From a virus, in IMG/VR virus record IMGVR_UViG_3300033067_000817: DNA of 64,000 nt. One strand, written 5' to 3'. The notes under the pieces were generated by a model. The model did not search any database, was not told the DNA's origin, and saw only the letters and a list, made by a program, of their open reading frames with translations. Made by a program: the position numbers and the translations under genes. This document shows, one piece after another, positions 623 through 18,052 of this stretch; within the stretch, counting starts at the first letter, position 1, and each line of letters opens with the position of its first letter.

Positions 623-1585
623 GTGGATGTAACAAAAGAAAGCGGGATTTTCACAATGGTACAATTCAAAGACGTTCAAATTGGTAATCTCTTCGTGTTC
701 ACTGAACATCCTGAACGTATTTATGTCAAAATCAACAACGATACAAGACTTGAGATAAGGCAAAAAGGACTTCAAGGAGCATCTTGCCATACTGCCTACA
801 AAGGTGCAGACATCACTATATTACAAATCAATTCAGTGTCTGGTACACCTAGCAATAAGAAGGTAGAACTCGGCTATACCGATTACGGTGAATTCAGTCA
901 ATTAAATAATGGTGATATATTTACCTGCTATTCAGTGCCCAATCACATACTAGTCAAATTAGGGCCATTGATGGCTATATGCATTAATGGCGAACTCAAG
1001 GGACAGCGTATGGATATGAGTAAAGGAACTACAGTCATTCATACGCTTAGCTTGGACACACATAAAGAGGCTAAACCAGAACAGGCGCCGGCAGCTTTGA
1101 AGCTATTCGAATGCACATTCAAAGAGCTCAAAATTGGTGAGGCATTCCAATGCAAACACTTCAAAGAGACAATATATATCAAGAATAGCGACACTACTGC
1201 TATTGTCATAAAAGGCAAGTACAAACATGCCATTTATGGAATAGACGAAGATCAAGAAATACTACTAGGAGAAATTGATATCAGTTCATTTGAAGAAGAG
1301 GAAGAAGACGAAGATTCAAAAACTAGCCAATCATATAATCAATTCAATTCAAAGGTATTAGTATCGATTACTAAACCTGATTCTACATCAGCCGGTAGCA
1401 GATGTCACATGTGCAATAACTTGCACTATATTGATCACAGCGACAAGAAACAAAAGTCAATCTATATCAAGTTCGAAGGACCTGGATGCACTGGATGGAC
1501 AGCAGATGCAGTTATTTGCAAGTACTGTGCAAAGAAGATTGTCAGCAATATTACACTGACAATTGACCAATTAAACAACATCTGA
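623..1585 (+). CDS. hypothetical protein with C-terminal Cys/His cluster
   Basis: 320-aa ORF. Acidic EEEEEDED stretch. C-terminal CHMCNN..HYIDH..CKYCAKK zinc-ribbon-like motif. Confidence 0.4.
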   Translation: MDVTKESGIFTMVQFKDVQIGNLFVFTEHPERIYVKINNDTRLEIRQKGLQGASCHTAYKGADITILQINSVSGTPSNKKVELGYTDYGEFSQLNNGDIFTCYSVPNHILVKLGPLMAICINGELKGQRMDMSKGTTVIHTLSLDTHKEAKPEQAPAALKLFECTFKELKIGEAFQCKHFKETIYIKNSDTTAIVIKGKYKHAIYGIDEDQEILLGEIDISSFEEEEEDEDSKTSQSYNQFNSKVLVSITKPDSTSAGSRCHMCNNLHYIDHSDKKQKSIYIKFEGPGCTGWTADAVICKYCAKKIVSNITLTIDQLNNI

Positions 1586-1617
1586 TCAACAAACCACAGA
1601 CCGGGAGTTTTCTGATT

Positions 1618-1911
1618 ATGTCACTAGCAGGCAGAACAATGACCATTCGTATTACCAATAAGGACATACAGAATGGCAAAAGAAGAGATGTGAACCAATG
1701 TCCTATTGCACTAGCTGTCAATAGGCATATGAAACAACGTGGCTATAAGCCATTTATAGTCACATTCATTCATATGTTTGACAATGTCGAAGATCAAGGA
1801 ACGTGGGCAAGGCTTCCAGAGAAAGCACAATGCTTCGTATCGAGGTTTGACAATGGTAGACCAATTGGTCCATTCACACTGAAAGTTACGTTCGAACTCA
1901 AAAAGTGGTAA
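1618..1911 (+). CDS. hypothetical protein
   Basis: 97-aa ORF in the + strand gene array, tightly spaced after the previous gene. Confidence 0.3.
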   Translation: MSLAGRTMTIRITNKDIQNGKRRDVNQCPIALAVNRHMKQRGYKPFIVTFIHMFDNVEDQGTWARLPEKAQCFVSRFDNGRPIGPFTLKVTFELKKW

Positions 1912-1941
1912 TCCACAAACCGCGTTTCTAGGAGTAAGACA

Positions 1942-2187
1942 ATGTTCACTAATCTGCCTGATGCAACACATGAACACGGGTTCGTTCGTCATACCTGCAA
2001 AGAATGCAGAGAACAGCCCGGACTCTGTAATGGCAACAAAACAAGCCGGTGCCTATATGGCACTATGCATGGATTCAATCGCAAAGGCGAAAAGATCTTT
2101 GTGTGTCCAATGTATGTCACACAAAACATGCTAAGCAACAGATGTGACATAGTAGAACGCAAGAAAGCATTTGACTCACCAGTGTGA
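1942..2187 (+). CDS. hypothetical Cys-rich small protein
   Basis: 81-aa ORF with CKECREQPGLC..C..C spacing (zinc-binding-like). Confidence 0.3.
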   Translation: MFTNLPDATHEHGFVRHTCKECREQPGLCNGNKTSRCLYGTMHGFNRKGEKIFVCPMYVTQNMLSNRCDIVERKKAFDSPV

Positions 2188-2596
2188 GAAAGGACTAACA
2201 TGACTAAGATAATAGCATGTAGCAAATGTGGTAGCTTGATCTACCTAACGAAATACGGGCCAAGGATATGTTATACTTGCCAAAAGAAAGCTAAATAAAA
2301 AGTCCGCTTCTGTTCTGGTTTCTCATTCCATAACATTTGAAAGGACCAATATGGGCGCAGTCCCTAGTGAAGTTCACGAAGATCTCGACAAGGCAGCAGC
2401 TGATGACAAGGCTGCAAAAGAAGCGCTCCTACAGGAGACCACAGAATTCCTCGAACCTATTGAAGGCTCAGAAGAATTGGTGAATACCAGAGCAGAATGG
2501 CTCGCAAAGTATGAGCCCAAAGCTGTGAGAGCAGCAATGAAGATTCTCGAAAAGCAACAATAGGCTAGGAGTAGCCTACAACAACGGAGAAAGACA

Positions 2597-3085
2597 GTGT
2601 TCAAATACATGACTTTGTATGATTTCTCTGATATGACTGATGAGCAGCTAGAGCTATACATAGCTCGCAGAGCTTATCGTCAACACAGAGAGCAACAAAT
2701 TGCGTGTTCACCATTAGTAAATGGTACACGCACTGACTGCAGTACTGGTGAAGTCAAAAAGGTTAGCTTACATCTAACTCTTGATAAATCACCATTGGAG
2801 CCTAATAAGAAACCAATAGTAACGCTACACGGTGGTGTTACTGGGTACGAATCATTCTATCTCAATGATTATGCCATGGAATGGCTATCAGCCCCAGAGG
2901 TAGAACAATGGGCAGCCTGTATGGGCACCAAAGGCCGGTATGATGAACTACTCATACCAACAACCGAAATGCGCAAAGCATTGCGAGAACTAGGAGTTGA
3001 TATCAGTGAGCCTGACACTGATAAAGACTTAGTCAAATCAGAACCAATTGAGCCAAAGCGAATAGCTGGCTGGGAGAACAAATGA
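2597..3085 (+). CDS. hypothetical protein
   Basis: 162-aa ORF with coding-like composition and no recognised motif. Confidence 0.35.
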   Translation: MFKYMTLYDFSDMTDEQLELYIARRAYRQHREQQIACSPLVNGTRTDCSTGEVKKVSLHLTLDKSPLEPNKKPIVTLHGGVTGYESFYLNDYAMEWLSAPEVEQWAACMGTKGRYDELLIPTTEMRKALRELGVDISEPDTDKDLVKSEPIEPKRIAGWENK

Positions 3086-3278
3086 GCGAAATCGGTCAAC
3101 GCATTACTCAAATGTGCACATTTCGTGATGCACTCCAAGTGGCTAGAAACAACTGCATGAATGACAAGCAGTTCAAGTCACTCAACGCCATGCTCACCAA
3201 TATCACCAAGCAAATTGATAATATCCAGAATCGGGGTAGATATCCCGATAGGAGAACTGACAACAGAGTACGAATCAA

Positions 3279-4010
3279 ATGAAAATACTCGTACTTGGTG
3301 ATGTTCATGCTTATTGGGAGCATATGAACATCGTAATCGCCAATGCATTGAGAAAGCACAAAGACATATGTGCTATCGTACAAGTAGGCGACTTTGGATA
3401 TGCAATGGGAACAAAACCATTTAAGCTATCCAGAGGATTCTATCAATCTGATGATGAACATCAGCATGCCCATTCAATACCCAAATATTGGAATGATGGC
3501 AACCACGAGAATCATGATCTACTAGATCAAGACAAAGGCGCATGGCAGCAAGGCTGGACATACCAGCCTCGTGGTTCAGTAATCACCATCAATAACAGAA
3601 ACATAATGTTCTTTGGTGGTGCTTCATCAATTGACAAATCAACCAGAACACCTGGTGTATCATGGTGGCCTCAAGAATCCATTACAATGGGTCAAACAAT
3701 GAGGGCATTAGAATACAATGGCAAATTGGACATTGTATTCTCGCATGAATTCCCAGCTGCATTCGAATATGACAGCTGGAAGGATAACTTTGGTATGCCT
3801 GATAGGCTATGTCTACAGCAGATCCAAAACAAATACCAACCACCGGTTTGGATATTTGGACATCATCATGAATACCAGTCAAGTAAATACAACGAGACTT
3901 GGTGGGCATGTGCACCGTGTATTGAATACAAGTCCTACATCGTCATAGATCTGGAAGGTCTAGTATTCACACATGAGGAGTGCAATGATACTAGCAGTAA
4001 CAGGACATAG
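3279..4010 (+). CDS. calcineurin-like metallophosphoesterase
   Basis: MKILVLGDVHAYWEH, VQVGDFGY and GNHENHD motifs (GDxH / GDxxD / GNHE metallophosphatase signature). Confidence 0.6.
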   Translation: MKILVLGDVHAYWEHMNIVIANALRKHKDICAIVQVGDFGYAMGTKPFKLSRGFYQSDDEHQHAHSIPKYWNDGNHENHDLLDQDKGAWQQGWTYQPRGSVITINNRNIMFFGGASSIDKSTRTPGVSWWPQESITMGQTMRALEYNGKLDIVFSHEFPAAFEYDSWKDNFGMPDRLCLQQIQNKYQPPVWIFGHHHEYQSSKYNETWWACAPCIEYKSYIVIDLEGLVFTHEECNDTSSNRT

Positions 4011-4506
4011 GCCTGACAAACTTGGTGGATATGCATTATCTGCATATCTACCAGTGTTGCAAACTGCAAAGAGAGCCATTACAAGGCTAAAGCCTGATAT
4101 GGTTCTCACAGGAATGGCGCTGGGATGGGATCAAGCAATAGCAGAAGCATGTGTATCTCTCAAGATACCATTCACTGCTGTTATCCCATCAACTGCACAA
4201 TCATCAAGATGGCCATTCGAGAGTAAAGCCAAATATGATCTATTGCTGGCACAAGCAAAAGATTGTATTGATTACTCAAAACTCACAGGTAATCAAGGTC
4301 TGAATATCTATCAGCTTCTTGATGGCCGTAACCATTGTATGGTTGACAATTGCGATAAGCTATTAACACTATATAATGGTGACAAAAGCGGTGGTACATA
4401 CAATTGTATCATATACGCTCAGAGCAAACAACGTGACATTGTGAATTGTTGGCCAATGTACCAGAAGGTACTAGCAGGAGACAACGATGCGAATTCTATT
4501 GATTGA
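3973..4506 (+). CDS. YpsA/DUF1273 SLOG-family protein
   Basis: AVTGHRPDKLGGY N-terminus, LTGMALGWDQAIAEA and FTAVIPSTAQSSRWPFES..YDLLLAQA blocks that parallel B. subtilis YpsA (ITGYKPFELG, ISGQLGVELWAAEAA, VAVITPFYEQEKNW). Confidence 0.6.
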   Translation: MRSAMILAVTGHRPDKLGGYALSAYLPVLQTAKRAITRLKPDMVLTGMALGWDQAIAEACVSLKIPFTAVIPSTAQSSRWPFESKAKYDLLLAQAKDCIDYSKLTGNQGLNIYQLLDGRNHCMVDNCDKLLTLYNGDKSGGTYNCIIYAQSKQRDIVNCWPMYQKVLAGDNDANSID

Positions 4507-4846
4507 AGATCAAGAAGTACGCATTGCATGGTTCAAGAAGAAATTCAAAGATCACACACTGATCATTGCCAAATCAAGGCAAGAAGCAGAAGAAATCTTT
4601 GAAATGGGAATGCCATATCACATGGCATTTCTTGATCATGATCTCGAAGAGATCAATCCAACTCCTGACAAGACAACATCTGCACTCATTAAACAAAATG
4701 AGCGTGTGAGAGAAGTTTTGAACAATCTATTGGATGGAGTTATCATCCATTCAATCAACTACGATGGTGCACAAAACATCAAATCACTATTGCCAAAAGC
4801 ACAAGTGATTCAGTACCACAAACTTCAAGTTCTAACAGGAGGATAA
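4487..4846 (+). CDS. CheY-like receiver-domain-like protein (degenerate)
   Basis: MRILLIEDQE N-terminus and AFLDHDL segment resemble response-regulator receiver motifs. The acidic pocket is not canonical. Confidence 0.3.
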   Translation: MRILLIEDQEVRIAWFKKKFKDHTLIIAKSRQEAEEIFEMGMPYHMAFLDHDLEEINPTPDKTTSALIKQNERVREVLNNLLDGVIIHSINYDGAQNIKSLLPKAQVIQYHKLQVLTGG

Positions 4847-5151
4847 CTAGCACAAAAGAAGAAAAAATTGTTCTTTTTCGTTTGGTCTTTTCTCGTCTTT
4901 CATGTTAGATTGGAGAATGACAATGAAGATCTGGAATAGCATTTGTGTCACATGCGCACACGTCATTGGATACGCACTGACAGTGATTGTCACATTCACC
5001 GTGTTCTTGATGCTGCACTCATTCCTGCCGTACTGGCTAGCAATGGTGCTGACGTTCACGATCATCGGATGTGGTGCATGGTACATAGGTGGCATGTTGC
5101 GCATGGTCATCGATGCCATCAGAGTGCTGAAGCAAGTTAGCACAATGGCAG

Positions 5152-5667
5152 GTGCTGTCTAGAATCAGCACCATGGAACAGCAAAAACAGCAGAGTGCCA
5201 ATGAGCTGCAAGTTGAGAACTGCAGCATCTTTGACAAAACCAAAGGCATAATTTGCCATCAGGTGAATTGCCAAGGTGTCATGGGCAAAGGATTGGCACT
5301 ACAGATTAGGAACAAGTATCCTAATGTGTATACTGCTTACAAAGACTACTGTGCCTCGTATGCAGACGACAAAGATCATCTGCTAGGTCAGGTACAGCTA
5401 ATAGGCGTTGGCCCAAGCGACGACCTATTCGTTTGCAATGTGTTCGGACAGCTTGGCTATGGACGTGACAAACGGTACACAGACTATGGTGCCGTTACCA
5501 GAGCGTTCAGAGCATTAGCTGGAATTCTGGCACGACTGGAAGAACGTCCTAAGGTATACATTCCATACCTAATGGGATGTGGATTGGCTGGTGGTGATTG
5601 GTTACCATACCAAAACGCCATCAAGACTCACATCCCGGATGCAACAGTGTGTAAGTTCAGACCGTAA
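5152..5667 (+). CDS. macro domain (ADP-ribose binding/processing) protein
   Basis: GIICHQVNCQGVMGKGLALQIRNKYP matches the macro-domain core (xVNAANxxLxxGxGVAGAI). Length 171 aa fits a stand-alone macro domain. Confidence 0.55.
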   Translation: MLSRISTMEQQKQQSANELQVENCSIFDKTKGIICHQVNCQGVMGKGLALQIRNKYPNVYTAYKDYCASYADDKDHLLGQVQLIGVGPSDDLFVCNVFGQLGYGRDKRYTDYGAVTRAFRALAGILARLEERPKVYIPYLMGCGLAGGDWLPYQNAIKTHIPDATVCKFRP

Positions 5668-5859
5668 GGACACAAACAATGCAACTCAAAGTGATTGACA
5701 CAGTGTTACGATGCTGGCGTTGTCAAAGCGCCTGCATTGATCTAACACCATCAAGCAATGGCATCATCTACACTCACGCTTGTGGATTCGTCTACACTGT
5801 GAGTGACAAAGGTGATGTCAAGAGCTTGAGTCCCTGTTCAGGGGATTGCACTATGCAAG

Positions 5860-6336
5860 ATGCTATGTGCAACAGCTGTCATCACTCTGAGTTCAAAGGA
5901 GATTGACATGAAAGAGATGTTTGCGCAAGCAAAACCGTACATGTTTACAGCACTGTGCGTTGTCACAGCGATCTGTACATTTGCGGTTGGTGGATTCATC
6001 TTCGCAGGATTCTTCATGGGACTCGTGACCAGCATTGCGCTGTTCATGAGCATCAGAAAGTTGCCTGCCAAGATCCAACGCTTCATGGCTCGACACCCGT
6101 TCATTTCGGACATGGTGTGCCTGAAGCTGACCGCTGGTATCCTGATGCTGATTGGCACAGGACCCACGATCTTCATGGCCTTGGTCACCCAAATGGTGGT
6201 CATGGGCATCTTACTGGAAACTCTTGATCCCAACATGAAGGATTCAAAGGAATCATGGAAACGACAACGACAATCAACCGGACGAGTTCTTACCCTGTCA
6301 CCGGAATCAGTGACAGTGGTACCCCAACCAGCGTGA
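5860..6336 (+). CDS. putative membrane protein
   Basis: Several hydrophobic helices (FIFAGFFMGLVTSIALFMSI, LTAGILMLIGTGPTIFMALV). Preferred over the overlapping minus-strand ORF because of gene-array polarity. Confidence 0.3.
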   Translation: MLCATAVITLSSKEIDMKEMFAQAKPYMFTALCVVTAICTFAVGGFIFAGFFMGLVTSIALFMSIRKLPAKIQRFMARHPFISDMVCLKLTAGILMLIGTGPTIFMALVTQMVVMGILLETLDPNMKDSKESWKRQRQSTGRVLTLSPESVTVVPQPA

Positions 6337-7059
6337 CCACGAATGCCAAACCGGGCATCAAGGGAACATTGGCAGCAGCAGGCACCATCATCGGAACCAG
6401 CTTCCTGATTGGTGCAAGCGTGGCACTCGCCACCTGGTGCGTCAACCGTGTCCTCGGAGACGGCAAGGAAGCGTTCGACAAGGCTCAACGAGCCAAGCCC
6501 GAATGAGTTGAGCTACTGTAGCTCAACCATGTAAGAAGCAACAATGTAGGTCACAGACACCCCATCCCCTGTGGCCTACATCATAGTTATCACAGACCTC
6601 CTAGCTAACATAGTAATCAATAAAAAGCCAATAAGGAGGCAAAAATGAACGCACAACGTCTGACCCAATTCAACTCCCTACAAGATGAAAGGAGAGCACA
6701 ACTGCGACAAGGAGGATTCATAGCTGTAAAGCTATTCAATCATACAGAGATTCTAATTCAGCGCTATGCGTCTGGTGGAATCTCGGCCATGATCGAACCA
6801 GCCATGTCTCTAGATCAAGAGCAGGCTGCCAAGCTGTACAAACAACTTGGTGATGTCCTCAAGCAGTTCGACAACGAGAACTCATGATTACCAAAATCAT
6901 AGTTATGCTTTTGCTACTAGTAGCAATCAGCATCTGTAATCTCCTGATCCAAAAGATTAGGAGAACAAGAAGGTCTATCCAGCCAGTGGGATAGATATCC
7001 GGGGACTTAAATCTGGCAAGTATCACAGTAAGACACAGGATGAATGATTCGAGGGAGTA

Positions 7060-8793
7060 ATGGCGAAAAGAATAGCCAATAAGGTGCCTAGCAGATCACG
7101 CATTATTCGTGAACTGTATGACATCAATAAGTACGAGGAGTGCATGGCCACCATCGGACTTATCGCATCGTTCTGGCAGCTGCTCGTGAAGCTTGATTCT
7201 GCTTTGGAAGAAGAGCAAATCAAGCATGGCGAAAAAGCCAGAACAAAGGAGCAAATCAAAGCCGACGCAGAGAGAGCTGTCGAAATGCTCCAGGCAGAAC
7301 TCACCAAGCTCACTGAGGAATTTCTTGCTACTCGTACTGAGAACAAGGCATTCCCCTTGGATCGAGTCGTAGGAGACCTGTTCGTAGACGCTGCCCGTGA
7401 GGGCCGTCTTGACAAGGATATTCTCATTAGGGTAGCGCTGGAACAGCAAGCGATTGCTGACGCAGAGTACTCCGAAGAGATCGGGTGGGACAAGGACAAG
7501 CTGAAGCCACGCCTTGTTCCACACGGACGCACACTCCAATGGTCTGAATACCACATTGGAGAGAAACAAGCTGGACACCTGCCGAGATTCCCTGTCTTCG
7601 GCAAAGACGATCATGAGGATTACGATCCCATGATGCGCAGCGGCAGATTCCCCACATTTGCTCCGAAGAAGTATCGGAGGACAATCAAAGGGGAAGAAGT
7701 GTGGATTCCCAATGTCCGCATGATGATGGACGAAGTTCAAGGGTACAAGATGCCGTTGAACTTGCCCATGAGCTGGGATGTTGACGAGAAAGGCAACAAG
7801 ATCAGGGACACTGACTGGGAGCCTTTGCAAGTCATCAAGACAGCAGAGATTGATCTTGAAGAGACGATGTTCAGTAATGAACATGGGGAGAACGTCTGTA
7901 AGATCGTTGAAGTGCATGAGTACCGTGACAGATACGGTAACATCACCGAAGAATGTCATATGCTGGAATTCGAAGAAGAGTTCAAGACGTATGACGAGAT
8001 GAAGGCTCTCATCGAGAGATACCTCAGCCCAGTCGAAAAGGAAAGACCTGAGGTCAAGTTCACTCCCGGTAAGAAAAAGATCGTTTCTTACGGTGTTCCT
8101 TGTCCGGAGCGTACGAAGGACGACAAGAACCGTGTTGACATTGTGATGTCAGCACAGTTCCGCAACTCACCACATTACGAAAAGCTGAAGCGACGAGAAC
8201 GGCTTCACAATCGTTATGTGACAGTTGTGCCTGGTGTCAGAAAGAAAGGCACTTGGCACAATGGCGTGTTCAAGCAAGAGAAGAAAGAAATCGAGTACGT
8301 AGCACGAGGTGGTATTGATTTCAAGGGTAGCAAGGAAGTTGGTGCACCTTACGAGATCAATGGCAACATTGTGACGTACTACGGTTACAATGACACTGCC
8401 GAGTACAACATCGTTGGAATCTGGGCAGAGTTGGCTCGTAAGAGATTCCTCAATGATCTTGAGCATGGCAAAGTGAAGATTTGCCGTGCCATCTCTTACA
8501 AAGATGGTCAGAAAAAGACCAAATGGCAGGCGTATCGTGTCTACAACTATGCCGTGAACAACAAGGCATTGGGCACGAAGACCAAATGCAACGTACTGCT
8601 GTTTTGTGATCTCAACAACAAGTTCAGTTCTCGTGATTTGGCCAAGGGTGGTTTTGATGTTACGGATGTGTTGAAGAACACATTCGGCATTTGGAGCCAC
8701 AAGGACCACGAGAAGTGGATCGAAGAACGTGGATTCAGCACCGATCCGTACACCTTTTACCCCACAATTGATTCAACTAATTTGGAGAAGTAA
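7060..8793 (+). CDS. hypothetical protein (577 aa)
   Basis: Long uninterrupted + strand ORF. No motif recognised. Confidence 0.45.
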   Translation: MAKRIANKVPSRSRIIRELYDINKYEECMATIGLIASFWQLLVKLDSALEEEQIKHGEKARTKEQIKADAERAVEMLQAELTKLTEEFLATRTENKAFPLDRVVGDLFVDAAREGRLDKDILIRVALEQQAIADAEYSEEIGWDKDKLKPRLVPHGRTLQWSEYHIGEKQAGHLPRFPVFGKDDHEDYDPMMRSGRFPTFAPKKYRRTIKGEEVWIPNVRMMMDEVQGYKMPLNLPMSWDVDEKGNKIRDTDWEPLQVIKTAEIDLEETMFSNEHGENVCKIVEVHEYRDRYGNITEECHMLEFEEEFKTYDEMKALIERYLSPVEKERPEVKFTPGKKKIVSYGVPCPERTKDDKNRVDIVMSAQFRNSPHYEKLKRRERLHNRYVTVVPGVRKKGTWHNGVFKQEKKEIEYVARGGIDFKGSKEVGAPYEINGNIVTYYGYNDTAEYNIVGIWAELARKRFLNDLEHGKVKICRAISYKDGQKKTKWQAYRVYNYAVNNKALGTKTKCNVLLFCDLNNKFSSRDLAKGGFDVTDVLKNTFGIWSHKDHEKWIEERGFSTDPYTFYPTIDSTNLEK

Positions 8794-9959: not shown

Positions 9960-10463
9960 CTAAATATTTAGTAAGCCATGATCAAATTCCCAATGACAAT
10001 TGGGACACAGTTGTATAACGTTAGATTTATGATTTACAATACCAATTTTAGTATTATCAGAGAAAGAAGAAATTGGAATACGATGAGCTAATTCAACATG
10101 CTTTGAATAGCCACAACTAGCACAAGGTAATTTAACAAGATCTCGATTCCAACTGCGATTTAAACCTCTTATATTAGCTGCTCTCCAAGAACGATGCTTT
10201 TTGGATACTGAGCGCTTAGAGTAAATCTCAGAAAGAGTCATATTCTCAATAAGATTACGTCTTGTAGTATTAGTTAGAATACAAGTATCACACAAAAAGC
10301 GCGTATTATAATTACGCTTATACTTGTATATCTTACTACATACTTTACAAGATCTATCTATTGGTGGATTTTTTTGTTTACCTCGATTATTGGTTTTTGC
10401 AGCACAACTACGAGAACAAAATCGAGGATTTATAGTGTCTTTAAGACATTCAACACAATTCAT
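9960..10463 (-). CDS. HNH homing endonuclease
   Basis: CPNCHWEFDHG HNH/zinc motif plus additional CxxC pairs. One of only two convincing minus-strand genes. Sits at the edge of the tRNA cluster. Confidence 0.7.
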   Translation of the reverse strand: MNCVECLKDTINPRFCSRSCAAKTNNRGKQKNPPIDRSCKVCSKIYKYKRNYNTRFLCDTCILTNTTRRNLIENMTLSEIYSKRSVSKKHRSWRAANIRGLNRSWNRDLVKLPCASCGYSKHVELAHRIPISSFSDNTKIGIVNHKSNVIQLCPNCHWEFDHGLLNI

Positions 10464-12459: not shown

Positions 12460-12536
12460 GAGAGGGTAGCTCAGTTGGTTAGAGCAACGGATTTTTAATC
12501 CGTAGGTCGAGGGTTCAACTCCCTCCCTTCTCACCA
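12460..12536 (+). tRNA. tRNA-Lys (anticodon UUU)
   Basis: Manual cloverleaf: GAGAGGG acceptor, GCTC-agttggtta-GAGC D-arm, ACGGA-tttttaa-TCCGT anticodon arm, GAGGG-ttcaact-CCCTC T-arm, A-CCA end. Confidence 0.85.
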
Positions 12537-12809
12537 GTATGGGAGCGGCATTCAGTAGGCCTACCCCATGTAGAGTTGAGTCGGATGCGTATGGCGTCAA
12601 CTTGAAAAAATTAACATGGCAGTAATCCTAAGGCATCAGGAACCTGCAAGAAAATAAGATGACATCCCAAACTGAGGATACGATTCATTTTTCGGGTGGA
12701 GACGATGCATAGTAATATGCATCCTTAGGGCAAGACAAAACCACTATAAGACTAGCCTAGTCCTCCATGATCTTGGATAAGAGGCTAACGTCCACCGTTT
12801 TTAGCACAC

Positions 12810-12914
12810 GCCGGGTTGCATGGTGCGACCAAGTATGAGTGCAGAGGTTCGAGTCCTCTACTGCAGGTCAGGTGACACTCCAAAGGCCGGTGGTTCAAGT
12901 CCACAAGCCCGGCA
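12810..12914 (+). ncRNA. tRNA-like element E3 (105 nt)
   Basis: GCCGGGT/GCCCGGC acceptor closure, two T-loop-like hairpins (AGAGG-ttcgagt-CCTCT and GGTGG-ttcaagt-CCACA), no CCA. Confidence 0.3.
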
Positions 12915-13006
12915 CCTACAATAGAAGTCAACACAATTCAACAACGAGGTGTGGCATGAGCACAGTGCATTACCCCAGTGACCTGGGCGAGTTGACTTCT
13001 ATTTAT

Positions 13007-13158
13007 GCTCAGGAAGCATTGCTGGTGATGTATCAGAATGGTAACACGTTCACATGGAGTCCGGGCTCGGCCAACGTTATAACTTTGTAGTGTGTACAGC
13101 TGCAAAGTCGAACTTATATCCATTCGAAAAGGCAGTTCAAATCTGTCCCTGAGCTCCA
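13007..13158 (+). ncRNA. tRNA-like element E4 (152 nt)
   Basis: GCTCAGG/CCTGAGC perfect 7-bp closure, GGCAG-ttcaaat-CTGTC T-arm, T-CCA end, D-arm-like GCAT-tgctggtg-ATGT near the 5' end. Confidence 0.35.
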
Positions 13159-13294
13159 ATACACGTCCTTAGTCAGTATAATGTCAATACTTCTTTGAAA
13201 CTTGTGCTTTAGCAACTATGTTAACTAAGCTGAAGCCTAGTTGTAGATGAACTATCGCTAGCTATATCTAAAACGAAAAGTTATCAAAGAGATT

Positions 13295-13564
13295 GTGGTA
13301 AAAATCCACACTAGGGGCACCAATCCAATGACAAGCAAGAAAAGACTAAGTCCCACTAAGCGTCATAACCTTGCACTCACAGAAGATACTCAGCAAAAGA
13401 TTAGAGATATCATACTGACAATGGGTGCAGCAAACACGGAGGAAGCAGTCCGAAGAGCAATCAATCTATATCACATGATGATTAGGATTGATGAAAAGGA
13501 TGAGATCTTCGTACGGAAAGGCCTAAATGGTCATCCACTACGATTGAGATTTGTAATTACGTAG
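13295..13564 (+). CDS. small ribbon-helix-helix-like protein (tentative)
   Basis: 89 aa. The HNLALTEDTQQKIRDIILTMGAANTEEAVRRAINLY pattern is typical of CopG/Arc RHH. Confidence 0.3.
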   Translation: MVKIHTRGTNPMTSKKRLSPTKRHNLALTEDTQQKIRDIILTMGAANTEEAVRRAINLYHMMIRIDEKDEIFVRKGLNGHPLRLRFVIT

Positions 13565-13654
13565 AAGCTGCGATGACTGGTGGTATCGCGTAGGACTGTA
13601 AATCCTATCCCTTTGTGGTGAACATTGTGAGTTCGAATCTCACCTTCTACACCA
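13561..13654 (+). tRNA. tRNA-Tyr (anticodon GUA), class II with long variable arm
   Basis: GTAGAAG/CTTCTAC acceptor, TAGGA-ctgtaaa-TCCTA anticodon arm, about 19-nt variable arm, GTGAG-ttcgaat-CTCAC T-arm, A-CCA. Confidence 0.75.
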
Positions 13655-13670
13655 AAACAATGGTGTATAT

Positions 13671-14096
13671 ATGACAAACATGCTTATCAAAGCGATTGAA
13701 ATCGCTCTCTGCTTTCACGGACGACAGCTTGACAAAGCAGGCATGCCGTATATACTTCATCCATTGCACGTAATGGATAAAGTCAATGGTATCGAAGCAA
13801 AGATTGTTGCAGTGCTACATGACACAGTTGAAGACACAAACTTAACACTTGAAGCACTTGCCAATGCTGGTTTCGATGACACTATTGTTAACGCCATTGA
13901 TGCTATTTCCAAGCGCAAAGGTGAAACAAACGAGGACTACTGGACTCGTGTAAAGTCCAATAAACTTGCATTGCAAGTAAAACTAGTAGACATAGCTCAC
14001 AATTCATCAGAAGAACGGCTTGCAGCTCTTTCTGATGAGCAAGCTACTTATCTGCGTGATAAGTATGCAAAAGCAAAAGCATTTCTACTAGCATAG
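13671..14096 (+). CDS. RelA/SpoT-type HD-domain (p)ppGpp hydrolase (small alarmone hydrolase)
   Basis: FHGRQLDKAGMPYILHPLHV, AVLHDTVEDT and VKLVDIAHNS match the SpoT hydrolase H..HD..D core (HxGQxR..PYIxHPLxVA, LHDvvEDT, KLADRLHNMRT). Confidence 0.7.
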   Translation: MTNMLIKAIEIALCFHGRQLDKAGMPYILHPLHVMDKVNGIEAKIVAVLHDTVEDTNLTLEALANAGFDDTIVNAIDAISKRKGETNEDYWTRVKSNKLALQVKLVDIAHNSSEERLAALSDEQATYLRDKYAKAKAFLLA

Positions 14097-14100
14097 TACA

Positions 14101-14150
14101 CGGCGGTGTGGCGTAATGGTAGCCGCACGAGGCTACTTCCTACGATGATG
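14101..14150 (+). ncRNA. tRNA 5'-half-like fragment (possible disrupted tRNA)
   Basis: Acceptor-like start plus GCG-taatggtagc-CGC D-arm. No anticodon arm or T-arm can be completed. Abuts and overlaps the end of the HNH gene. Confidence 0.25.
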
Positions 14151-14624
14151 AGTGGGTGTTTGTGTATGACAATTAGGACACAAGAATCGTAGATTTGTAG
14201 CTTCATTATTCAGAAAATCACCATCAATATGGTCTATTTCTAATACAATAGGCTTACCATTCCATAAGTCATGTAGTCCACACCAATCACAAACATGACT
14301 TCTTCCTATAGAAAGAAGTGCACGGCGTAGTAATTTTGTTTTTTGCTTATGCTGATGAACTTCTCGCCTTACTAGAATTTCTTCTGGCTTAAGTTGAGGA
14401 CAAAAAACATTTTTATTCCAAGCACTGCCTTTAAAGTGTGATGTATCAATCTTAAATGATTGAATACATCGTTTAATATAAGTTTGCGTACCACCTGCTT
14501 GTTTAAGCCCTAAAGTACGCAAAACATTAGCATAGCTAGTTGAAGCTTTAACAGCTTGCTCCAGAACAAGACGGGTATATTTTATGGAAGACATAGTAAC
14601 CTCCATAGCTTTTCCGTCTACCAT
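14133..14624 (-). CDS. HNH homing endonuclease
   Basis: CDWCGLHDLWNGKPIVLEIDHIDGDFLNNEATNLRFLCPNCH is a classic HNH motif. Inserted between tRNA genes. Confidence 0.7.
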   Translation of the reverse strand: MVDGKAMEVTMSSIKYTRLVLEQAVKASTSYANVLRTLGLKQAGGTQTYIKRCIQSFKIDTSHFKGSAWNKNVFCPQLKPEEILVRREVHQHKQKTKLLRRALLSIGRSHVCDWCGLHDLWNGKPIVLEIDHIDGDFLNNEATNLRFLCPNCHTQTPTHHRRK

Positions 14625-14625
14625 G

Positions 14626-14701
14626 CCTAGGTAGCCAAATTGGTATAGGCAACACGCTTAGGACGTGTAATTTATGGGTTCGAATCCCATTCTAGGCACC
14701 A
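14626..14701 (+). tRNA. tRNA with anticodon UAG (Leu-type anticodon) but class I short variable arm
   Basis: GCCTAGG/TCTAGGC acceptor, GCC-aaattggtata-GGC D-arm, ACACG-cttagga-CGTGT anticodon arm, 5-nt variable loop, ATGGG-ttcgaat-CCCAT T-arm, A-CCA. Confidence 0.55.
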
Positions 14702-14709
14702 CCAACAAT

Positions 14710-15051
14710 ATGAAAGAAGTCAAAGACATGTACTGGCGTAACGTTGGCATTCTTGTGCTTGTGCTTGCTTCGATCATAGGTCTATCAGCATTTGCTGTTT
14801 TGAGATCTGGATCCACCAAGCATGAGATCAATACAGTAGCGGCCATGGTTACTAAGAACTACACTAGAATCAGCGCCGACACTGTGTCGTACATCGTGGA
14901 CACAGATCACGGTACGTTCCAGACATACGATCATACGTATGTTCAGGATTTGCAACCAGGACATAGGTATGTATTCTCATTGGAAGGAGAATATCATACG
15001 ACTATGTTCTCGCAATACTTCCCAATCATAGTGAGAGTAGTCCCACAATGA
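14710..15051 (+). CDS. secreted/membrane-anchored protein, paralog A
   Basis: Start moved to the ATG after the tRNA. N-terminal hydrophobic segment. C-terminal HRYVFSLEGEYHTTMFSQYFPIIVRVVPQ is paralogous to the next gene. Confidence 0.4.
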   Translation: MKEVKDMYWRNVGILVLVLASIIGLSAFAVLRSGSTKHEINTVAAMVTKNYTRISADTVSYIVDTDHGTFQTYDHTYVQDLQPGHRYVFSLEGEYHTTMFSQYFPIIVRVVPQ

Positions 15052-15410
15052 AAAAGGGATTCACACTAGTAGAGCTAATAGTAGTTATATGCTTGCTAGT
15101 CATATTCCTACTATTCTGCATTCCATATTGCAGTGGAGGTGTAGGTGGCCTTGGTAAACATGATACGGTAACCTGTATCGTGAAATCAAAGCATATTGAT
15201 ACCAGAGGTGGCAAAAGCCATTATATGGTAACAACAACTCAAGGCACATTCGAAGTTGACAATGGCCCAGCACTAGGAGTTTGGAATGCCGATGAGATAT
15301 ACGGCAATATCCTAGTAGAGCATAAGTATCTCTTTGAGATAGCTGGTGCCAAGTTCGTCAATCCAATAGCTCAGTATTATCCATATATAATACGGGCTGA
15401 GGAACAGTAG
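15048..15410 (+). CDS. prepilin-type (type IV pilin-like) N-terminal domain protein, paralog B
   Basis: MKKGFTLVELIVVICLL is a class III signal / N-methylation motif (GFTLVE). C-terminal HKYLFEIAGAKFVNPIAQYYPYIIRAEEQ is paralogous to the previous gene. Confidence 0.45.
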   Translation: MKKGFTLVELIVVICLLVIFLLFCIPYCSGGVGGLGKHDTVTCIVKSKHIDTRGGKSHYMVTTTQGTFEVDNGPALGVWNADEIYGNILVEHKYLFEIAGAKFVNPIAQYYPYIIRAEEQ

Positions 15411-15424
15411 CACACGGTAGAGTG

Positions 15425-15500
15425 GGGGTATAGGCAAATTGGCAAAGCCAGTTGAATTAAGATCAATTGTTTGCGAGTTCGACTCTCGCTGCCCCTACCA
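15425..15500 (+). tRNA. tRNA with anticodon UAA (Leu-type anticodon), short variable arm
   Basis: GGGGGTA/TGCCCCT acceptor (two G-U), GGC-aaattggcaaa-GCC D-arm, GTTGA-attaaga-TCAAT anticodon arm, GCGAG-ttcgact-CTCGC T-arm, A-CCA. Confidence 0.5.
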
Positions 15501-15852
15501 CTTCCGAACAATACTTCCAAAGATTGGAAGTAAACAGAACTCCTTGTAGCAATACAAGTGAGGCCTGCCACAAGCAGGAACTTAAGACTGAGTGTCTTGT
15601 GAGAGATTGATGTTCTAGAGCGTGGTTGCAAAAGGGAGTTTGGCACTCAACACCCTGTCAATTGCAACGCACATATACATGTCATGTAGGAATACATGAA
15701 ACGAGCTTAAAGTTTACTCGTTAAATAACAAACTATAGGCTAGGGCTTGGAGCAATGAAATCATGCCTATGATGGAGCTCCCTGTCCAACATTCTAACGC
15801 CGCCTGCCACTATGGACTCCCTTAGCAGGGCTTGTAAGGTTGAGAGCCTATT

Positions 15853-15884
15853 AGCTCAGTAACGAAAGTTACTGGGCTTTTTTA
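15853..15884 (+). terminator. intrinsic terminator
   Basis: CTCAGTAAC-gaaa-GTTACTGGG followed by CTTTTTT. Confidence 0.55.
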
Positions 15885-16172
15885 ATTGCATAGTGTTGGT
15901 GTTGCCAAAAACATGGCGATGCCATTTACGGGCTAGTAGATAAAATGCCTCAACACCATTCTACTAACTCGTATTTAGTACAAATAAGTTCAAGTAGCTG
16001 AGACGCAACGGTGTATTGCTAGTACATCAACTAGGCTGTTTGGGACAAGTCTAGCTAAAGAAGTGCGTAGTGTCTTGCCGATTGGCGCTAAGACAATGGA
16101 ATCAGGATATTTGTCACTAGCAAGTTTGACAATATCTCTTGGGTTCAAATCCCAAGCTACTCGTTTAAACAG

Positions 16173-18045: not shown

Positions 18046-18052
18046 GAACAAG

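What the first reader, a model, noticed from the sequence alone, without database searches (positions are those of the whole stretch)
3973..5667. Cluster of signalling / ADP-ribose-related small proteins: YpsA-SLOG, receiver-like domain, macro domain
Three consecutive genes encode a DUF1273/YpsA SLOG protein (predicted nucleotide or ADP-ribose-derivative binder), a degenerate CheY-like receiver, and a macro domain. Macro domains reverse ADP-ribosylation (for example DarG against DarT) and bind ADP-ribose-derived signals. SLOG proteins are implicated in nucleotide-signal sensing. Together they suggest a phage counter-defence or host-manipulation module aimed at ADP-ribosylation or NAD-derived signalling.
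Basis: partly seen in the sequence, partly recalled or inferred. Interest (0 to 1): 0.55.

Follow-up and report, generated by a model that had tools for sequence, protein, structure and literature searches.

The report
Phage ADP-ribose-derivative processing gene cassette
An uncultivated phage carries a tight operon of four small enzymes (a phosphoesterase, a YpsA-type SLOG protein, a receiver-like "cREC" protein and a macro domain). All four belong to families already predicted, and for the macro family partly shown, to process ADP-ribose-derived molecules in phage-host conflicts, so this is a real but not unprecedented module.

Summary
All three domain calls are correct. ORF 3985-4506 is a YpsA/YoqJ-clade SLOG protein. 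ORF 4487-4846 is not a degenerate CheY but a full member of the cREC family (PF20274, "cyclic-phosphate processing receiver"). ORF 5173-5667 is an ALC1-like macro domain whose relatives include SCO6735, DarG, yeast Poa1 and macros sitting in Adps-macro-Namat-type operons.

A possible 79-codon membrane ORF lies between cREC and macro. An overlapping upstream metallophosphoesterase (3279-4010) is the best-conserved partner: 5 of 9 distinct close-homologue clusters carry cREC and/or this macro family within about 5 kb, against 2 of 60 distant ones. Three of the nine also carry NAMPT-like and four Nudix genes.

I read the locus as one co-transcribed cassette that processes phospho- or cyclic-phospho-ADP-ribose derivatives or ADP-ribose adducts, serving counter-defence and the NAD economy, with links to RNA repair in relatives. 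Substrates are inferred, not shown.

The Aravind laboratory described this kind of neighbourhood computationally in 2021-22. A 2026 preprint shows a phage macro acting as an ADPR-1''-phosphate phosphatase. cREC and phage YpsA remain untested.

Verdict: new member of a known kind, moderate interest.

The parts
3279..4010 (+). Calcineurin-like metallophosphoesterase (243 aa) of a distinct subfamily with an invariant SWWPQESIT motif.
   Evidence: Pfam Metallophos at 1.2e-10 and phrog_1649 at 4e-30. The metal-binding residues D8, H10, D38, N75, H76, H156, H195 and H197 are invariant in alignment A4. The closest solved relative by profile is the Dbr1 catalytic domain (4peh, 6e-10); the next is LpxH at 3e-3. 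Close homologues lie next to cREC and/or the same macro family in 5 of 9 distinct clusters. Its 3' end overlaps the YpsA start by 26 nt.
3985..4506 (+). YpsA/YoqJ-clade SLOG protein (173 aa)
   Evidence: PF06908 at 35.1 bits against a cut-off of 27.7. There are 1104 homologous clusters, several of which JGI names 'phage-like protein YoqJ'; among the 120 listed, one is a fusion to NADAR. The family invariants TGHRP, GMAxGWD, R115 and GGT are all present. Profile against 2nx2 gives 7e-14. The AF2 model has pLDDT 94.9 and TM 0.82 to 2nx2, followed by ShosA/DprA, Moco-carrier and LOG.
4487..4846 (+). cREC (cyclic-phosphate-processing receiver family) protein, 119 aa, stand-alone
   Evidence: PF20274 at 28.3 bits against a cut-off of 27. 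Full HMMER search finds 285 homologues at E<=1e-3, the best at 47% identity. The family invariants D8, R12, D52 and H88 and the near-invariants E7, D50, H51, S89, N91 and G94 are all present; only the family's near-invariant Gly at position 64 is replaced (Thr here). The AF2 model has pLDDT 94.6 with a REC fold. An AGGAG Shine-Dalgarno is present, and the start overlaps the YpsA stop by 20 nt.
4923..5162 (+). Possible small two-TM protein (79 aa from ATG 4923; the ORF is open from 4902). Uncertain.
   Evidence: GGAGA lies 6 nt upstream of ATG 4923. It is not called on the Logan contig L063. It has no family hit and no homologue in the loci fetched up to that point. The codon-usage score is about 0, against 0.13-0.18 for the four enzyme genes.
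5173..5667 (+). Macro domain protein (164 aa) of the ALC1-like class, in the SCO6735/BT1257/Adpp-like family
   Evidence: phrog_335 at 2.5e-33. There are 759 homologous clusters, and the 164-aa protein from ATG 5173 is on record from a JGI source (P0151). All family invariants are present (Q30, N32, G38, G40, A42, Q93, G97, T103, Y105, P131, C136, G140, W143). Identity is 34% to the macro inside the PRPS-like - macro - NAMPT-like operon of Vibrio phage K354. Identity is 40-46% to the macros next to MPE homologues in L131, L133 and L134. A 7-bp hairpin (5151-5157 / 5166-5172) sits directly before the ATG.
5679..5906 (+). Possible Cys-rich (zinc-ribbon-like) 75-aa ORF. Uncertain.
   Evidence: AAGGA lies 8 nt upstream. 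It has no significant family hit and is not called on the Logan contig L063. It has no homologue in the loci fetched up to that point. Coding score is about 0.
5908..6336 (+). 142-aa membrane protein of unknown function; last tightly packed gene of the run
   Evidence: AAGGAG lies 6 nt upstream. It is called as a gene on the identical Logan contig. It has no family hit and no homologue in the loci fetched up to that point.

Best explanation
The genes from 3279 to at least 5667 form one co-transcribed phage cassette of four small enzymes that act together on ADP-ribose-derived molecules carrying a substituent, phosphate or cyclic phosphate on the second (1''/2'') ribose.

Most likely division of labour:
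- cREC, a receiver-fold protein with its own conserved Asp/His/Arg pocket, opens a cyclic phosphate. Candidates are ADP-ribose-1'',2''-cyclic phosphate or an RNA 2',3'-cyclic end.
- The macro domain removes what is attached at C1''. Phosphate is the preferred candidate, as for Poa1 and the phage Adpp. Thymine-linked DNA, as for SCO6735, is the alternative.
- The Dbr1-like metallophosphoesterase cleaves a further phosphoester.
- The YpsA-type SLOG protein binds or trims the nucleotide moiety.

The purpose is to neutralise or recycle products of host NAD-consuming defences or toxins (RES-type NADases, ADP-ribosyltransferases) and by-products of NAD-dependent RNA repair. This would protect the phage's NAD economy and nucleic acids.

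Shown: the gene order and overlaps, the family memberships and folds, conservation of family active-site residues, and recurrent linkage of the phosphoesterase subfamily with cREC, this macro family, Nudix and NAMPT.

Inferred: every substrate, the order of reactions, and the counter-defence role.
For: Operon structure:
- MPE/YpsA and YpsA/cREC overlap by 26 and 20 nt. The remaining gaps are at most 76 nt.
- Shine-Dalgarno sites are present, and there is no + strand terminator-like site in 1500-7500.

Family membership and intact motifs. Folds.

Macro residues:
- The macro keeps the positions that SCO6735 needs: N27, K34, Q85 and the G126/G128 loop correspond to N32, K39, Q93 and GCGLAGG here (PMC9411070).
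- It is 34% identical (E 5e-27) to the macro in the PRPS-like - macro - NAMPT-like operon of Vibrio phage K354.
- That is the architecture in which Adpp was shown to dephosphorylate ADPR-1''P (bioRxiv 10.64898/2026.01.28.702374).

Linkage of the phosphoesterase:
- Of 9 distinct clusters of close MPE homologues, 3 carry cREC and 3 carry this macro family within about 5 kb. Five carry one or the other (L131 has both), mostly directly adjacent. The figure is 2 of 60 for distant homologues.
- Examples: L122 is cREC-MPE-HNH-Nudix-x-NAMPT. L134 is macro-x-MPE-Nudix-x-NAMPT. L131 is macro...cREC-MPE.

Other context:
- The closest cREC homologue (45% identity) lies in a syntenic relative within HAD_SAK - RNA ligase - Metallophos - x - cREC.
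- Macro homologues lie next to PNKP, HAD_SAK and RlaP.
- A SLOG-like gene sits directly upstream of cREC in L099 and L110.
- One YpsA homologue is fused to NADAR.

Published predictions for these families in phages: PMC7824862, PMC9503650.
Against: No biochemical test exists for cREC or for phage YpsA/YoqJ proteins.

The exact four-gene combination was not found elsewhere.
- The closest YpsA and macro homologues sit in unrelated contexts.
- Only 1 distinct phage among 62 YpsA loci has this macro within 6 kb.
- Only 2 of 49 cREC loci have it within 7 kb.

The 64-kb window, plus 5.5 kb upstream, has no detectable NAMPT, Adps, Nudix, RNA ligase, KptA/Tpt1, sirtuin or PNKP. The source of any phospho-ADP-ribose would therefore have to be the host or an unseen part of the genome.

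The close MPE loci are related phages, so part of the linkage may be shared ancestry.

The macro residues do not discriminate phosphatase from glycohydrolase activity.
Confidence: 0.5

Rival explanations
1. RNA-repair accessory set. cREC and the phosphoesterase heal RNA ends, turning 2',3'-cyclic phosphate into 2'- or 3'-phosphate and then OH, after host anticodon nucleases or ribozyme cleavage. The macro clears ADP-ribose-1''-phosphate left by Tpt1/KptA-type 2'-phosphate removal. The cassette's primary substrate would be RNA rather than free NAD-derived metabolites.
For: The nearest cREC homologue sits in a HAD_SAK - RNA ligase - Metallophos - x - cREC operon of a syntenic relative. RNA ligase homologues lie near cREC in L085/086, L108 and L109, and near MPE plus macro in L128 and L129. 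Macro homologues lie beside PNKP, HAD_SAK and RlaP. The MPE's closest solved relative is the RNA debranching enzyme Dbr1. The window carries 7 tRNA genes, a Ro60-like protein and a Pistol ribozyme, whose cleavage leaves a cyclic phosphate. This role is predicted in PMC7824862 and PMC9503650.
Against: No RNA ligase, PNKP, HAD_SAK, KptA/Tpt1 or sirtuin was detected in the window or in 5.5 kb upstream. In the closest MPE loci the partners are Nudix and NAMPT, which are NAD-salvage genes rather than ligases.
Confidence: 0.2
2. The macro alone is the functional anti-defence gene. It would be a stand-alone antitoxin-like DNA de-ADP-ribosylase against DarT2-type toxins, as PhiKZ AdfM and SCO6735 are. 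The neighbouring genes would be independent accessory genes.
For: SCO6735 and DarG are among the best solved matches (2e-18 and 1.9e-16). The residues needed by SCO6735 for T-ADPr-DNA hydrolysis are conserved, including K39, where the family consensus has Ala (PMC9411070). A phage precedent exists in AdfM (PMC13309987). NCBIfam DarG gives a partial hit at 6.4e-13.
Against: The DarG/TARG1 catalytic lysine is replaced by Gln, and the DarG C-terminal DarT-binding domain is absent (48.7 bits against a cut-off of 250). Family members occur inside NAD-reconstitution-type operons and next to phosphoesterases, which points to phospho-ADP-ribose substrates. The overlapping reading frames argue for joint expression with the neighbours.
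Confidence: 0.12
3. Degradation or sequestration of TIR/Thoeris-type signals (glycocyclic ADPR isomers, His-ADPR). The YpsA SLOG protein would act as binder or N-glycosidase, and the macro and phosphoesterase would finish the breakdown.
For: SLOG domains of ThsA bind gcADPR, and viral YpsA-clade SLOGs were predicted to degrade such signals (PMC9503650). The YpsA fold and nucleotide-loop motifs are intact.
Against: No direct evidence supports this reading. In the Foldseek PDB search (top 50 listed), the relatives after YpsA are ShosA/DprA, Moco-carrier and LOG, and ThsA is not among them. YpsA is the least conserved member of the neighbourhood. cREC and a cyclic-phosphate theme do not fit glycosidic cADPR isomers.
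Confidence: 0.08
4. Chance juxtaposition. Four common phage accessory genes happen to be neighbours in a variable early region, with no shared pathway.
For: Each family is abundant in phages: macro in 949 INPHARED records, YpsA in 1104 clusters, cREC in 285 representatives. Contexts of the nearest YpsA and macro homologues differ. BLAST clustering of cREC neighbourhoods found no dominant partner.
Against: The MPE subfamily is specifically enriched for cREC or macro neighbours: 5 of 9 close clusters against 2 of 60 distant ones. The partnership persists through different gene orders. Start and stop codons overlap in this locus. SLOG-cREC adjacency recurs in L099 and L110.
Confidence: 0.1

Closest known systems
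cREC-containing NAD+/ADP-ribose and RNA-repair gene neighbourhoods of (jumbo) phages, described computationally by Iyer, Burroughs, Aravind and colleagues (PMC7824862, 2021; PMC9503650, 2022)
   Same: The domain families match: cREC, Macro, YpsA-clade SLOG and calcineurin-like phosphoesterase. The partners seen in relatives match too: Nudix, NAMPT/NadV, RNA ligase, HAD 'Swiss-army-knife' and MazG. cREC is stand-alone and never found with a histidine kinase. The location is early or nucleotide-metabolism regions of large phages.
   Different: The passages I read in those papers do not mention this arrangement (MPE - YpsA - cREC - small TM ORF - macro in one overlapping operon) or the SWWPQESIT/Dbr1-like MPE subfamily as the conserved partner. 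No sirtuin, KptA, 2H or Nudix is present in this window.
NARP1-AP and its macro-domain phosphatase Adpp (Vibrio phage Gary; bioRxiv 10.64898/2026.01.28.702374)
   Same: The macro belongs to the same Poa1-related family. It is 34% identical to the macro in the PRPS-like - macro - NAMPT-like operon of Vibrio phage K354. In relatives the macro-MPE pair lies beside NAMPT-like and Nudix genes.
   Different: No Adps or Namat gene is in the window. The partners here are cREC, a metallophosphoesterase and YpsA. Identity to the tested Gary protein itself was not measured.
SCO6735 / BT1257, DarG2 and phage AdfM: ALC1-like macro hydrolases that remove thymidine-linked ADP-ribose from DNA (PMC9411070, PMC13309987)
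   Same: These are the best solved-structure matches by profile (1.5e-21 to 1.9e-16). The Asn, the Gln of SCO6735, Lys34 and the GCGLAGG phosphate loop are conserved.
   Different: The catalytic Lys of DarG, TARG1 and AdfM is absent. There is no DarT-binding domain and no DarT partner. The genomic context points to phosphoester chemistry.
Yeast tRNA-splicing by-product pathway: Tpt1 makes ADP-ribose-1'',2''-cyclic phosphate, Cpd1 (2H) converts it to ADP-ribose-1''-phosphate, and Poa1 (macro) converts that to ADP-ribose. This is established knowledge; Poa1 structures are 6lfq-6lfu.
   Same: A cyclic-phosphate-opening enzyme is paired with a Poa1-related macro phosphatase. The family profile matches Poa1 at 9.4e-13.
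   Different: The 2H enzyme would be replaced by the unrelated cREC fold. No Tpt1/KptA was found. Two further proteins (MPE, YpsA) have no counterpart in the yeast pathway.
B. subtilis YpsA and the SPbeta prophage protein YoqJ (PMC6459960)
   Same: The fold matches (TM 0.82 to 2nx2) and the GxD/E ligand motif is present. Several homologues carry the JGI name YoqJ-like.
   Different: There is no gpsB partner. The cell-division role of YpsA rests on residues reported as not conserved in YoqJ. The ligand is unknown for both proteins.
RNA lariat debranching enzyme Dbr1 (PDB 4peh and others)
   Same: It is the closest solved relative of the phosphoesterase subfamily across the whole catalytic domain (6e-10).
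   Different: There is no Dbr1 C-terminal domain. The first metal ligand is Asp rather than the Cys reported for Dbr1 (from my own knowledge). The subfamily has its own SWWPQESIT motif. Similarity may be mostly the shared metallophosphoesterase core.

Membership tests
YpsA clade of the SLOG superfamily (Pfam PF06908) | Profile score above the curated cut-off | tested here: met
   35.1 bits against a cut-off of 27.7. PF06908 is also precomputed on the identical JGI protein.
YpsA clade of the SLOG superfamily (Pfam PF06908) | SLOG Rossmannoid fold closest to YpsA | tested here: met
   AF2 pLDDT 94.9. Foldseek top hit is 2nx2 at TM 0.82 and rmsd 2.5 A, followed by ShosA/DprA, Moco-carrier and LOG.
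YpsA clade of the SLOG superfamily (Pfam PF06908) | GxD/E substrate-binding motif (G53/E55 of B. subtilis YpsA; PMC6459960) | tested here: met
   LGWD aligns with YpsA LGVE. G47 and D49 are invariant in 55 homologues.
YpsA clade of the SLOG superfamily (Pfam PF06908) | Binding or turnover of an NAD/ADP-ribose-derived ligand | not testable with these tools
   The ligand is unknown even for B. subtilis YpsA.
cREC (Pfam PF20274) | Profile score above the curated cut-off | tested here: met
   28.3 bits against a cut-off of 27, which is marginal for this sequence. All 68 aligned homologues hit PF20274, the best at 4.5e-18.
cREC (Pfam PF20274) | Receiver (CheY-like) fold | tested here: met
   pLDDT 94.6. 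All listed Foldseek PDB hits are receiver domains at TM 0.57-0.70 and 12-23% identity.
cREC (Pfam PF20274) | Conserved acidic residues of the receiver pocket, plus family-specific polar residues | tested here: met
   E7, D8, D50, H51, D52, R12, H88, S89 and N91 are all present.
cREC (Pfam PF20274) | Never with a histidine kinase; found with NAD/ADP-ribose or RNA-repair genes | tested here: met
   No HisKA or HATPase kinase was found among the ORFs of at least 120 aa in the window. Neighbours here are macro, YpsA and MPE. In relatives they are RNA ligase, Nudix and NAMPT.
cREC (Pfam PF20274) | Cyclic-phosphate phosphoesterase activity | not testable with these tools
   This is a prediction only (PMC7824862, PMC9503650). 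The PDB fold search returned only classical receiver-type domains, none annotated as cREC.
Canonical two-component receiver (Pfam PF00072) | Conserved Lys of the active-site quintet, and a partner kinase | tested here: not met
   No Lys appears among the columns conserved at 90% or more in alignment A1. This protein does not reach PF00072 at E<=1. No kinase is in the window.
Macro domain, ALC1-like class (SCO6735/BT1257/Adpp-like family) | Recognisable macro domain | tested here: met
   Pfam Macro is below its cut-off (18.8 against 22). The family profile matches solved macro domains at 1.5e-21 to 2e-8, and phrog_335 matches at 2.5e-33.
Macro domain, ALC1-like class (SCO6735/BT1257/Adpp-like family) | SCO6735 functional residues N27, K34, Q85 and the G126/G128 loop (PMC9411070) | tested here: met
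   N32, K39, Q93 and GCGLAGG align with them.
DarG / TARG1 / AdfM type macro hydrolase | Catalytic lysine (DarG K80, TARG1 K84, AdfM K78) | tested here: not met
   The aligned position is the family-invariant Gln93.
DarG antitoxin (NCBIfam NF048014) | Full-length match including the DarT-binding domain, with an adjacent DarT | tested here: not met
   48.7 bits against a cut-off of 250, with only residues 17-62 matched. The protein is 164 aa. No ART/DarT gene was detected nearby.
NARP1-AP (Adps - Adpp - Namat) | Macro phosphatase encoded inside an Adps/Namat operon | tested here: not met
   A homologous macro in such an operon exists in Vibrio phage K354 at 34% identity. No PRPS-like or NAMPT-like gene is in the window or in 5.5 kb upstream.
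Calcineurin-like metallophosphoesterase (PF00149) | Metal-binding motifs DxH, GD, GNH(E/D), H and GHxH | tested here: met
   D8/H10, G37-D38, G74-N75-H76, H156 and G194-H195-x-H197 are invariant in A4. Pfam gives 42.5 bits against a cut-off of 21.5.
Dbr1 lariat debranching enzyme | Dbr1 C-terminal domain and Cys as the first metal ligand (from my own knowledge) | tested here: not met
   The protein is 243 aa, and the match covers only the catalytic domain (chain residues 11-258 of 356). Motif I is GDVH.

The most novel reading that the evidence does not exclude
The Dbr1-like SWWPQESIT phosphoesterase, cREC and the Adpp/SCO6735-like macro, joined here by a YoqJ-type SLOG protein, form a conserved but uncharacterised phage pathway. 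It would linearise and dephosphorylate cyclic or phospho-ADP-ribose species, or 2'-phospho-ADP-ribosylated RNA. It would feed NAD salvage and defeat RES-type or other non-canonical NAD-cleaving defences. cREC would be the first receiver-fold domain shown to act as a hydrolase.
Probability: 0.3. Interest if true: 0.65.

Novelty: new member of a known kind. Interest (0 to 1): 0.4.

Why it matters
NAD and ADP-ribose chemistry has become a central battleground between bacteria and phages, through Thoeris, DSR, SIR2-HerA, aRES, DarTG and the NARP pathways. Two of the four families here, cREC and the phage YpsA/YoqJ SLOG proteins, have no tested activity.

This locus packs them into one overlapping operon with a macro domain whose relatives have tested activities. 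The comparative data single out a specific phosphoesterase subfamily as their steady partner next to NAMPT and Nudix genes. That gives a compact, clonable four-gene system for asking two questions: what cREC does, and which ADP-ribose derivative the set handles.

If the answer is ADPR-1''P or ADP-ribose cyclic phosphate, it would add a route by which phages without NARP1 handle RES-type NAD cleavage. If nothing of the kind is found, the locus is simply one more accessory-gene island.

Tried and rejected
- Megablast of the locus against INPHARED phages found nothing. tblastn of cREC against phages found nothing.
- The word-indexed 5.8-billion-protein search found only the cREC protein itself. 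The exhaustive HMMER search was needed.
- The search for related loci with cREC alone and with the 68-sequence alignment failed. A 14-sequence alignment worked.
- BLAST single-linkage clustering of cREC neighbourhoods was too insensitive to give a dominant partner.
- Contexts of further cREC homologues (P0003-P0005) were uninformative. So were those of the nearest macro (P0152, P0154, P0157) and YpsA (P0272) homologues.
- The two metallophosphoesterases of the window are not orthologues of the one in the RNA-ligase operon of L064.
- NCBIfam added nothing decisive.
- The promoter and terminator scan was at background level.
- The window and the Logan contig are identical over 14.8 kb, so no polymorphism-based test of the small ORFs was possible. 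The small ORFs have no homologues and ambiguous coding scores.
- Literature searches on DUF488 and on phage Dbr1-like enzymes gave nothing usable. The 2016 RNA-repair paper is not held.
- The canonical response-regulator reading was rejected: no conserved Lys, no kinase, no PF00072 hit. The DarG reading was also rejected: no catalytic Lys and no DarT-binding domain.

Full report
WHAT IS THERE

The window reads as part of an uncultivated tailed-phage-like genome.
- Almost every ORF is on the + strand, and there are seven tRNA genes.
- It carries split multisubunit RNA-polymerase beta-like genes, a DnaE-type polymerase, ClpP, ribonucleotide reductase, RecA/UvsX-like, DNA ligase and a reverse transcriptase.
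- No known phage is close. There is no megablast hit, and the best DnaE match is 36% identical.
- The same sequence exists as a 73.4-kb JGI contig and a 71.2-kb Logan contig. It is identical over the 14.8 kb compared.

The genes in and around the finding's coordinates, all on the + strand, are as follows.
- A metallophosphoesterase (MPE), 3279-4010.
- A YpsA-type protein, 3985-4506. Its start is at ATG 3985 behind GAGGAG. This matches the 173-aa JGI-source protein P0271 and the gene called on the Logan contig.
- A receiver-like protein, 4487-4846.
- A possible 79-codon two-TM ORF, 4923-5162.
- A macro-domain protein, 5173-5667. The start is ATG 5173, matching the 164-aa JGI-source protein P0151.
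- A possible Cys-rich 75-codon ORF, 5679-5906.
- A 142-aa membrane protein, 5908-6336.

MPE and YpsA overlap by 26 nt, and YpsA and the receiver-like gene by 20 nt. The other gaps are at most 76 nt. No + strand terminator-like site occurs between 1500 and 7500. The four enzyme genes have clearly positive codon-usage scores (0.13-0.18). The three small or membrane ORFs score about 0 and have no homologues in any locus fetched by that point. They remain unresolved.

YpsA.
- Pfam PF06908 is above its cut-off.
- There are 1104 homologous clusters. Most of those listed are stand-alone proteins of 155-190 aa, and JGI names several 'phage-like protein YoqJ'. Among the 120 listed, one is fused to NADAR.
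- All family-invariant residues are present: TGHRP, GMAxGWD with the GxD/E motif, R115 and GGT.
- A family profile matches the YpsA crystal structure at 7e-14.
- The AF2 model (pLDDT 94.9) superposes on 2nx2 at TM 0.82. The other SLOG families follow.

Receiver-like protein.
- It passes the Pfam cut-off for PF20274, cREC_REC, narrowly.
- An exhaustive HMMER search finds 285 relatives. Nearly all of those listed are stand-alone proteins of 88-152 aa. All 68 that I aligned hit PF20274, and 26 also hit PF00072.
- The family has its own constellation. D8, R12, D52 and H88 are invariant. E7, D50, H51, S89, N91 and G94 are near-invariant. There is no conserved Lys.
- The window protein has every one of these residues.
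- Its model (pLDDT 94.6) has a receiver fold. All listed PDB neighbours are receiver domains at 12-23% identity.
- It is therefore a bona fide cREC, not a decayed CheY.

Macro domain.
- It falls below Pfam's cut-off (18.8 against 22) but is beyond doubt a macro domain.
- phrog_335 matches at 2.5e-33, and there are 759 homologous clusters.
- A profile of 57 members matches BT1257 (1.5e-21), SCO6735 (2e-18), DarG (1.9e-16 and 1.8e-14), yeast Poa1 (9.4e-13) and TARG1 (2e-8).
- The aligned catalytic Lys of DarG and TARG1 is the family-invariant Gln93, as in SCO6735.
- The residues that SCO6735 needs (N27, K34, Q85, the G126/G128 loop; PMC9411070) are all conserved here.

THE MISSED PARTNER

The upstream MPE has all the metal-binding motifs and an invariant SWWPQESIT motif that defines a subfamily. 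By profile its closest solved relative is the catalytic domain of the RNA debranching enzyme Dbr1 (6e-10). The next is LpxH at 3e-3. It lacks the Dbr1 C-terminal domain.

I fetched 88 loci encoding relatives from IMG/VR and metagenomes. I scanned their flanks with HMMs built from my cREC, macro and YpsA alignments.
- Among 9 distinct clusters of close homologues, 3 carry cREC, 3 carry this macro family and 5 carry one or the other. The partner is mostly immediately adjacent.
- Among 60 distant clusters, only 2 carry one or the other.
- L122 is Ro60-like ... small TM - cREC - MPE - HNH - Nudix - x - NAMPT.
- L126 is cREC - x - MPE - rIIA-like.
- L131 is macro ... cREC - MPE - x - rIIA-like.
- L133 and L134 are macro - x - MPE - Nudix - x - NAMPT ... 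rIIA-like.
- The Pfam checks are, and the maps.
- The macros in these loci are 40-46% identical to the window's.

The partnership persists while the gene order changes, which is the usual mark of functional coupling. These phages are related, however, so the counts are not fully independent.

OTHER CONTEXT

- The nearest cREC homologue (45% identity) lies in a phage syntenic with window 20.5-31.4 kb. There it sits in HAD_SAK - RNA ligase - Metallophos - x - cREC. That Metallophos is not an orthologue of either MPE in the window.
- Macro homologues lie beside PNKP, HAD_SAK and RlaP (L072) or a kinase (L071).
- In Vibrio phage K354 the macro lies inside a PRPS-like - macro - NAMPT-like operon after rIIA/rIIB. 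It is 34% identical to the window's macro (E 5e-27).
- A SLOG-like gene lies directly upstream of cREC in L099 and L110.
- YpsA is the loosest member. Of 62 YpsA loci, only one distinct phage has this macro within 6 kb. The closest YpsA homologue sits among ThyX and RNR genes.
- The window, plus 5.5 kb upstream on the Logan contig, has no detectable NAMPT, Nudix, PRPS-like, RNA ligase, PNKP, HAD_SAK, KptA, sirtuin or histidine kinase.

WHAT THE LITERATURE SAYS

- The Aravind laboratory named cREC. It noted that cREC never accompanies histidine kinases and predicted that it opens cyclic phosphates on RNA ends or on ADP-ribose-1'',2''-cyclic phosphate. It described cREC links to RNA ligases, Nudix, sirtuins, MazG and calcineurin-like enzymes in phages.
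- The same group found that viral SLOG domains are mostly of the YpsA clade and tend to be linked or fused to Macro and NADAR. It stated that cREC, NADAR and SLOG were experimentally uncharacterised (PMC7824862, PMC9503650).
- SCO6735 removes thymidine-linked ADP-ribose from DNA using Gln85 (PMC9411070).
- PhiKZ AdfM is a Lys-type macro that counters DarT2 (PMC13309987).
- A 2026 preprint shows that a Poa1-like phage macro, Adpp, encoded between Adps and Namat, converts ADPR-1''-phosphate made by RES-type defence proteins into ADPR, so that NARP1 can rebuild NAD (10.64898/2026.01.28.702374).
- I found no experimental paper on cREC or on phage YoqJ-like proteins.

HOW IT MOST LIKELY WORKS

I commit to a single co-transcribed cassette that processes ADP-ribose derivatives substituted at the 1''/2'' position.
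- cREC opens a cyclic phosphate.
- The macro removes the C1'' substituent. Phosphate is favoured by context, and thymine-DNA is the alternative.
- The Dbr1-like MPE cleaves another phosphoester.
- YpsA binds or trims the nucleotide.

The role would be counter-defence and NAD economy, overlapping with RNA repair. Confidence is about 0.5 for the joint-function, ADP-ribose-derivative reading, and much lower for any particular substrate.

Shown: the anatomy, families, folds, conserved residues and recurrent linkage. Inferred: all chemistry and the biological role.

The rivals are an RNA-end-healing set (0.2), a stand-alone anti-DarT macro with unrelated neighbours (0.12), degradation of Thoeris-type signals (0.08), and chance juxtaposition (0.1).

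COMPARISON, NOVELTY AND VERDICT

Each protein is a member of an already defined family, and this kind of neighbourhood has been published as a computational prediction. The locus is not DarG: there is no catalytic Lys, no DarT-binding domain and no DarT. It is not NARP1-AP: there is no Adps or Namat. It is not a two-component receiver.

New here:
- the particular four-gene overlapping arrangement;
- the recognition that a specific phosphoesterase subfamily is the steady partner of cREC and this macro family, next to NAMPT and Nudix genes in several relatives.

I rate it a new member of a known kind, with interest 0.4. It is useful as a compact test bed for the untested cREC and YoqJ families, but it would not surprise a specialist.

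Noticed in passing
window 16517-16584 (+): A full-length Pistol self-cleaving ribozyme (Rfam RF02679, 55.1 bits against a gathering score of 34.5). It lies in a 1.5-kb ORF-poor stretch between tRNA-Leu and tRNA-Met. Its cleavage would leave a 2',3'-cyclic phosphate, the kind of end cREC is predicted to open.
   Followed up: partly
window 12460-25247 (+): ARAGORN finds seven tRNA genes: Lys, Tyr, Leu x2, Met, Ser and Phe. Rfam does not report the 94-nt tRNA-Tyr at 13561-13654 at gathering score.
   Followed up: no
window 18053-19237 (+) and 13671-14096 (+): An adenylosuccinate-synthetase homologue (Pfam 2.6e-40). It scores far below the NCBIfam cut-offs for both PurA and PurZ (PurZ 44.7 bits against 300). 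An HD-domain protein lies at the second position. A possible link to modified-purine metabolism was not resolved.
   Followed up: no
window 25856-27520 (+); L122 1610-3136; L125 1797-3449: A Ro60/TROVE-vWA-like 'RNA-binding protein' (DUF7788, phrog_850) lies just after two tRNA genes. Pfam supports a Ro60/TROVE-like gene a few genes upstream of cREC-MPE in L122. A gene with a similar N-terminus lies in the same position in L125, by eye only and not tested.
   Followed up: partly
window 23940-24494 (+); L128 4579-5001; L129 4027-4686: A second, unrelated metallophosphoesterase. In L128 and L129 its homologues lie directly upstream of homologues of the first MPE, with a macro gene nearby. In the syntenic relative L064 this genome region holds the RNA ligase - Metallophos - cREC operon.
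   Followed up: partly
L122 4150-4413, L126 3619-3873, L131 5218-5655, L134 4047-4331: A conserved protein with a LARAEAV...PTVD motif, about 85-95 aa in three loci and 146 aa as predicted in L131. It occurs in exactly the five MPE clusters that also carry cREC or macro. It has no homologue in the window and no Pfam hit.
   Followed up: partly
window 29871-31460 and 34149-36029 (+): Two separate genes with similarity to the RNA polymerase beta subunit (phrog_2987 and phrog_2986; Pfam Rpb2 domain 6). This suggests a phage-encoded split multisubunit RNA polymerase.
   Followed up: no
window 50302-51444 (+): A reverse transcriptase (RVT_1, 4.6e-23) sits among replication and recombination genes. 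Its type (DGR, retron-like or other) was not examined.
   Followed up: no
window 9960-10463 (-) and 14133-14624 (-): The only sizeable minus-strand ORFs with a family hit. Both encode HNH endonucleases, presumably homing elements. An HNH gene also interrupts cREC-MPE-Nudix in L122.
   Followed up: no
P0160, P0166, P0168 (homologues, not in the window): Macro-family members at 46-50% identity are fused to a DUF488-N3a domain (PF22751). The meaning of this fusion was not worked out.
   Followed up: partly
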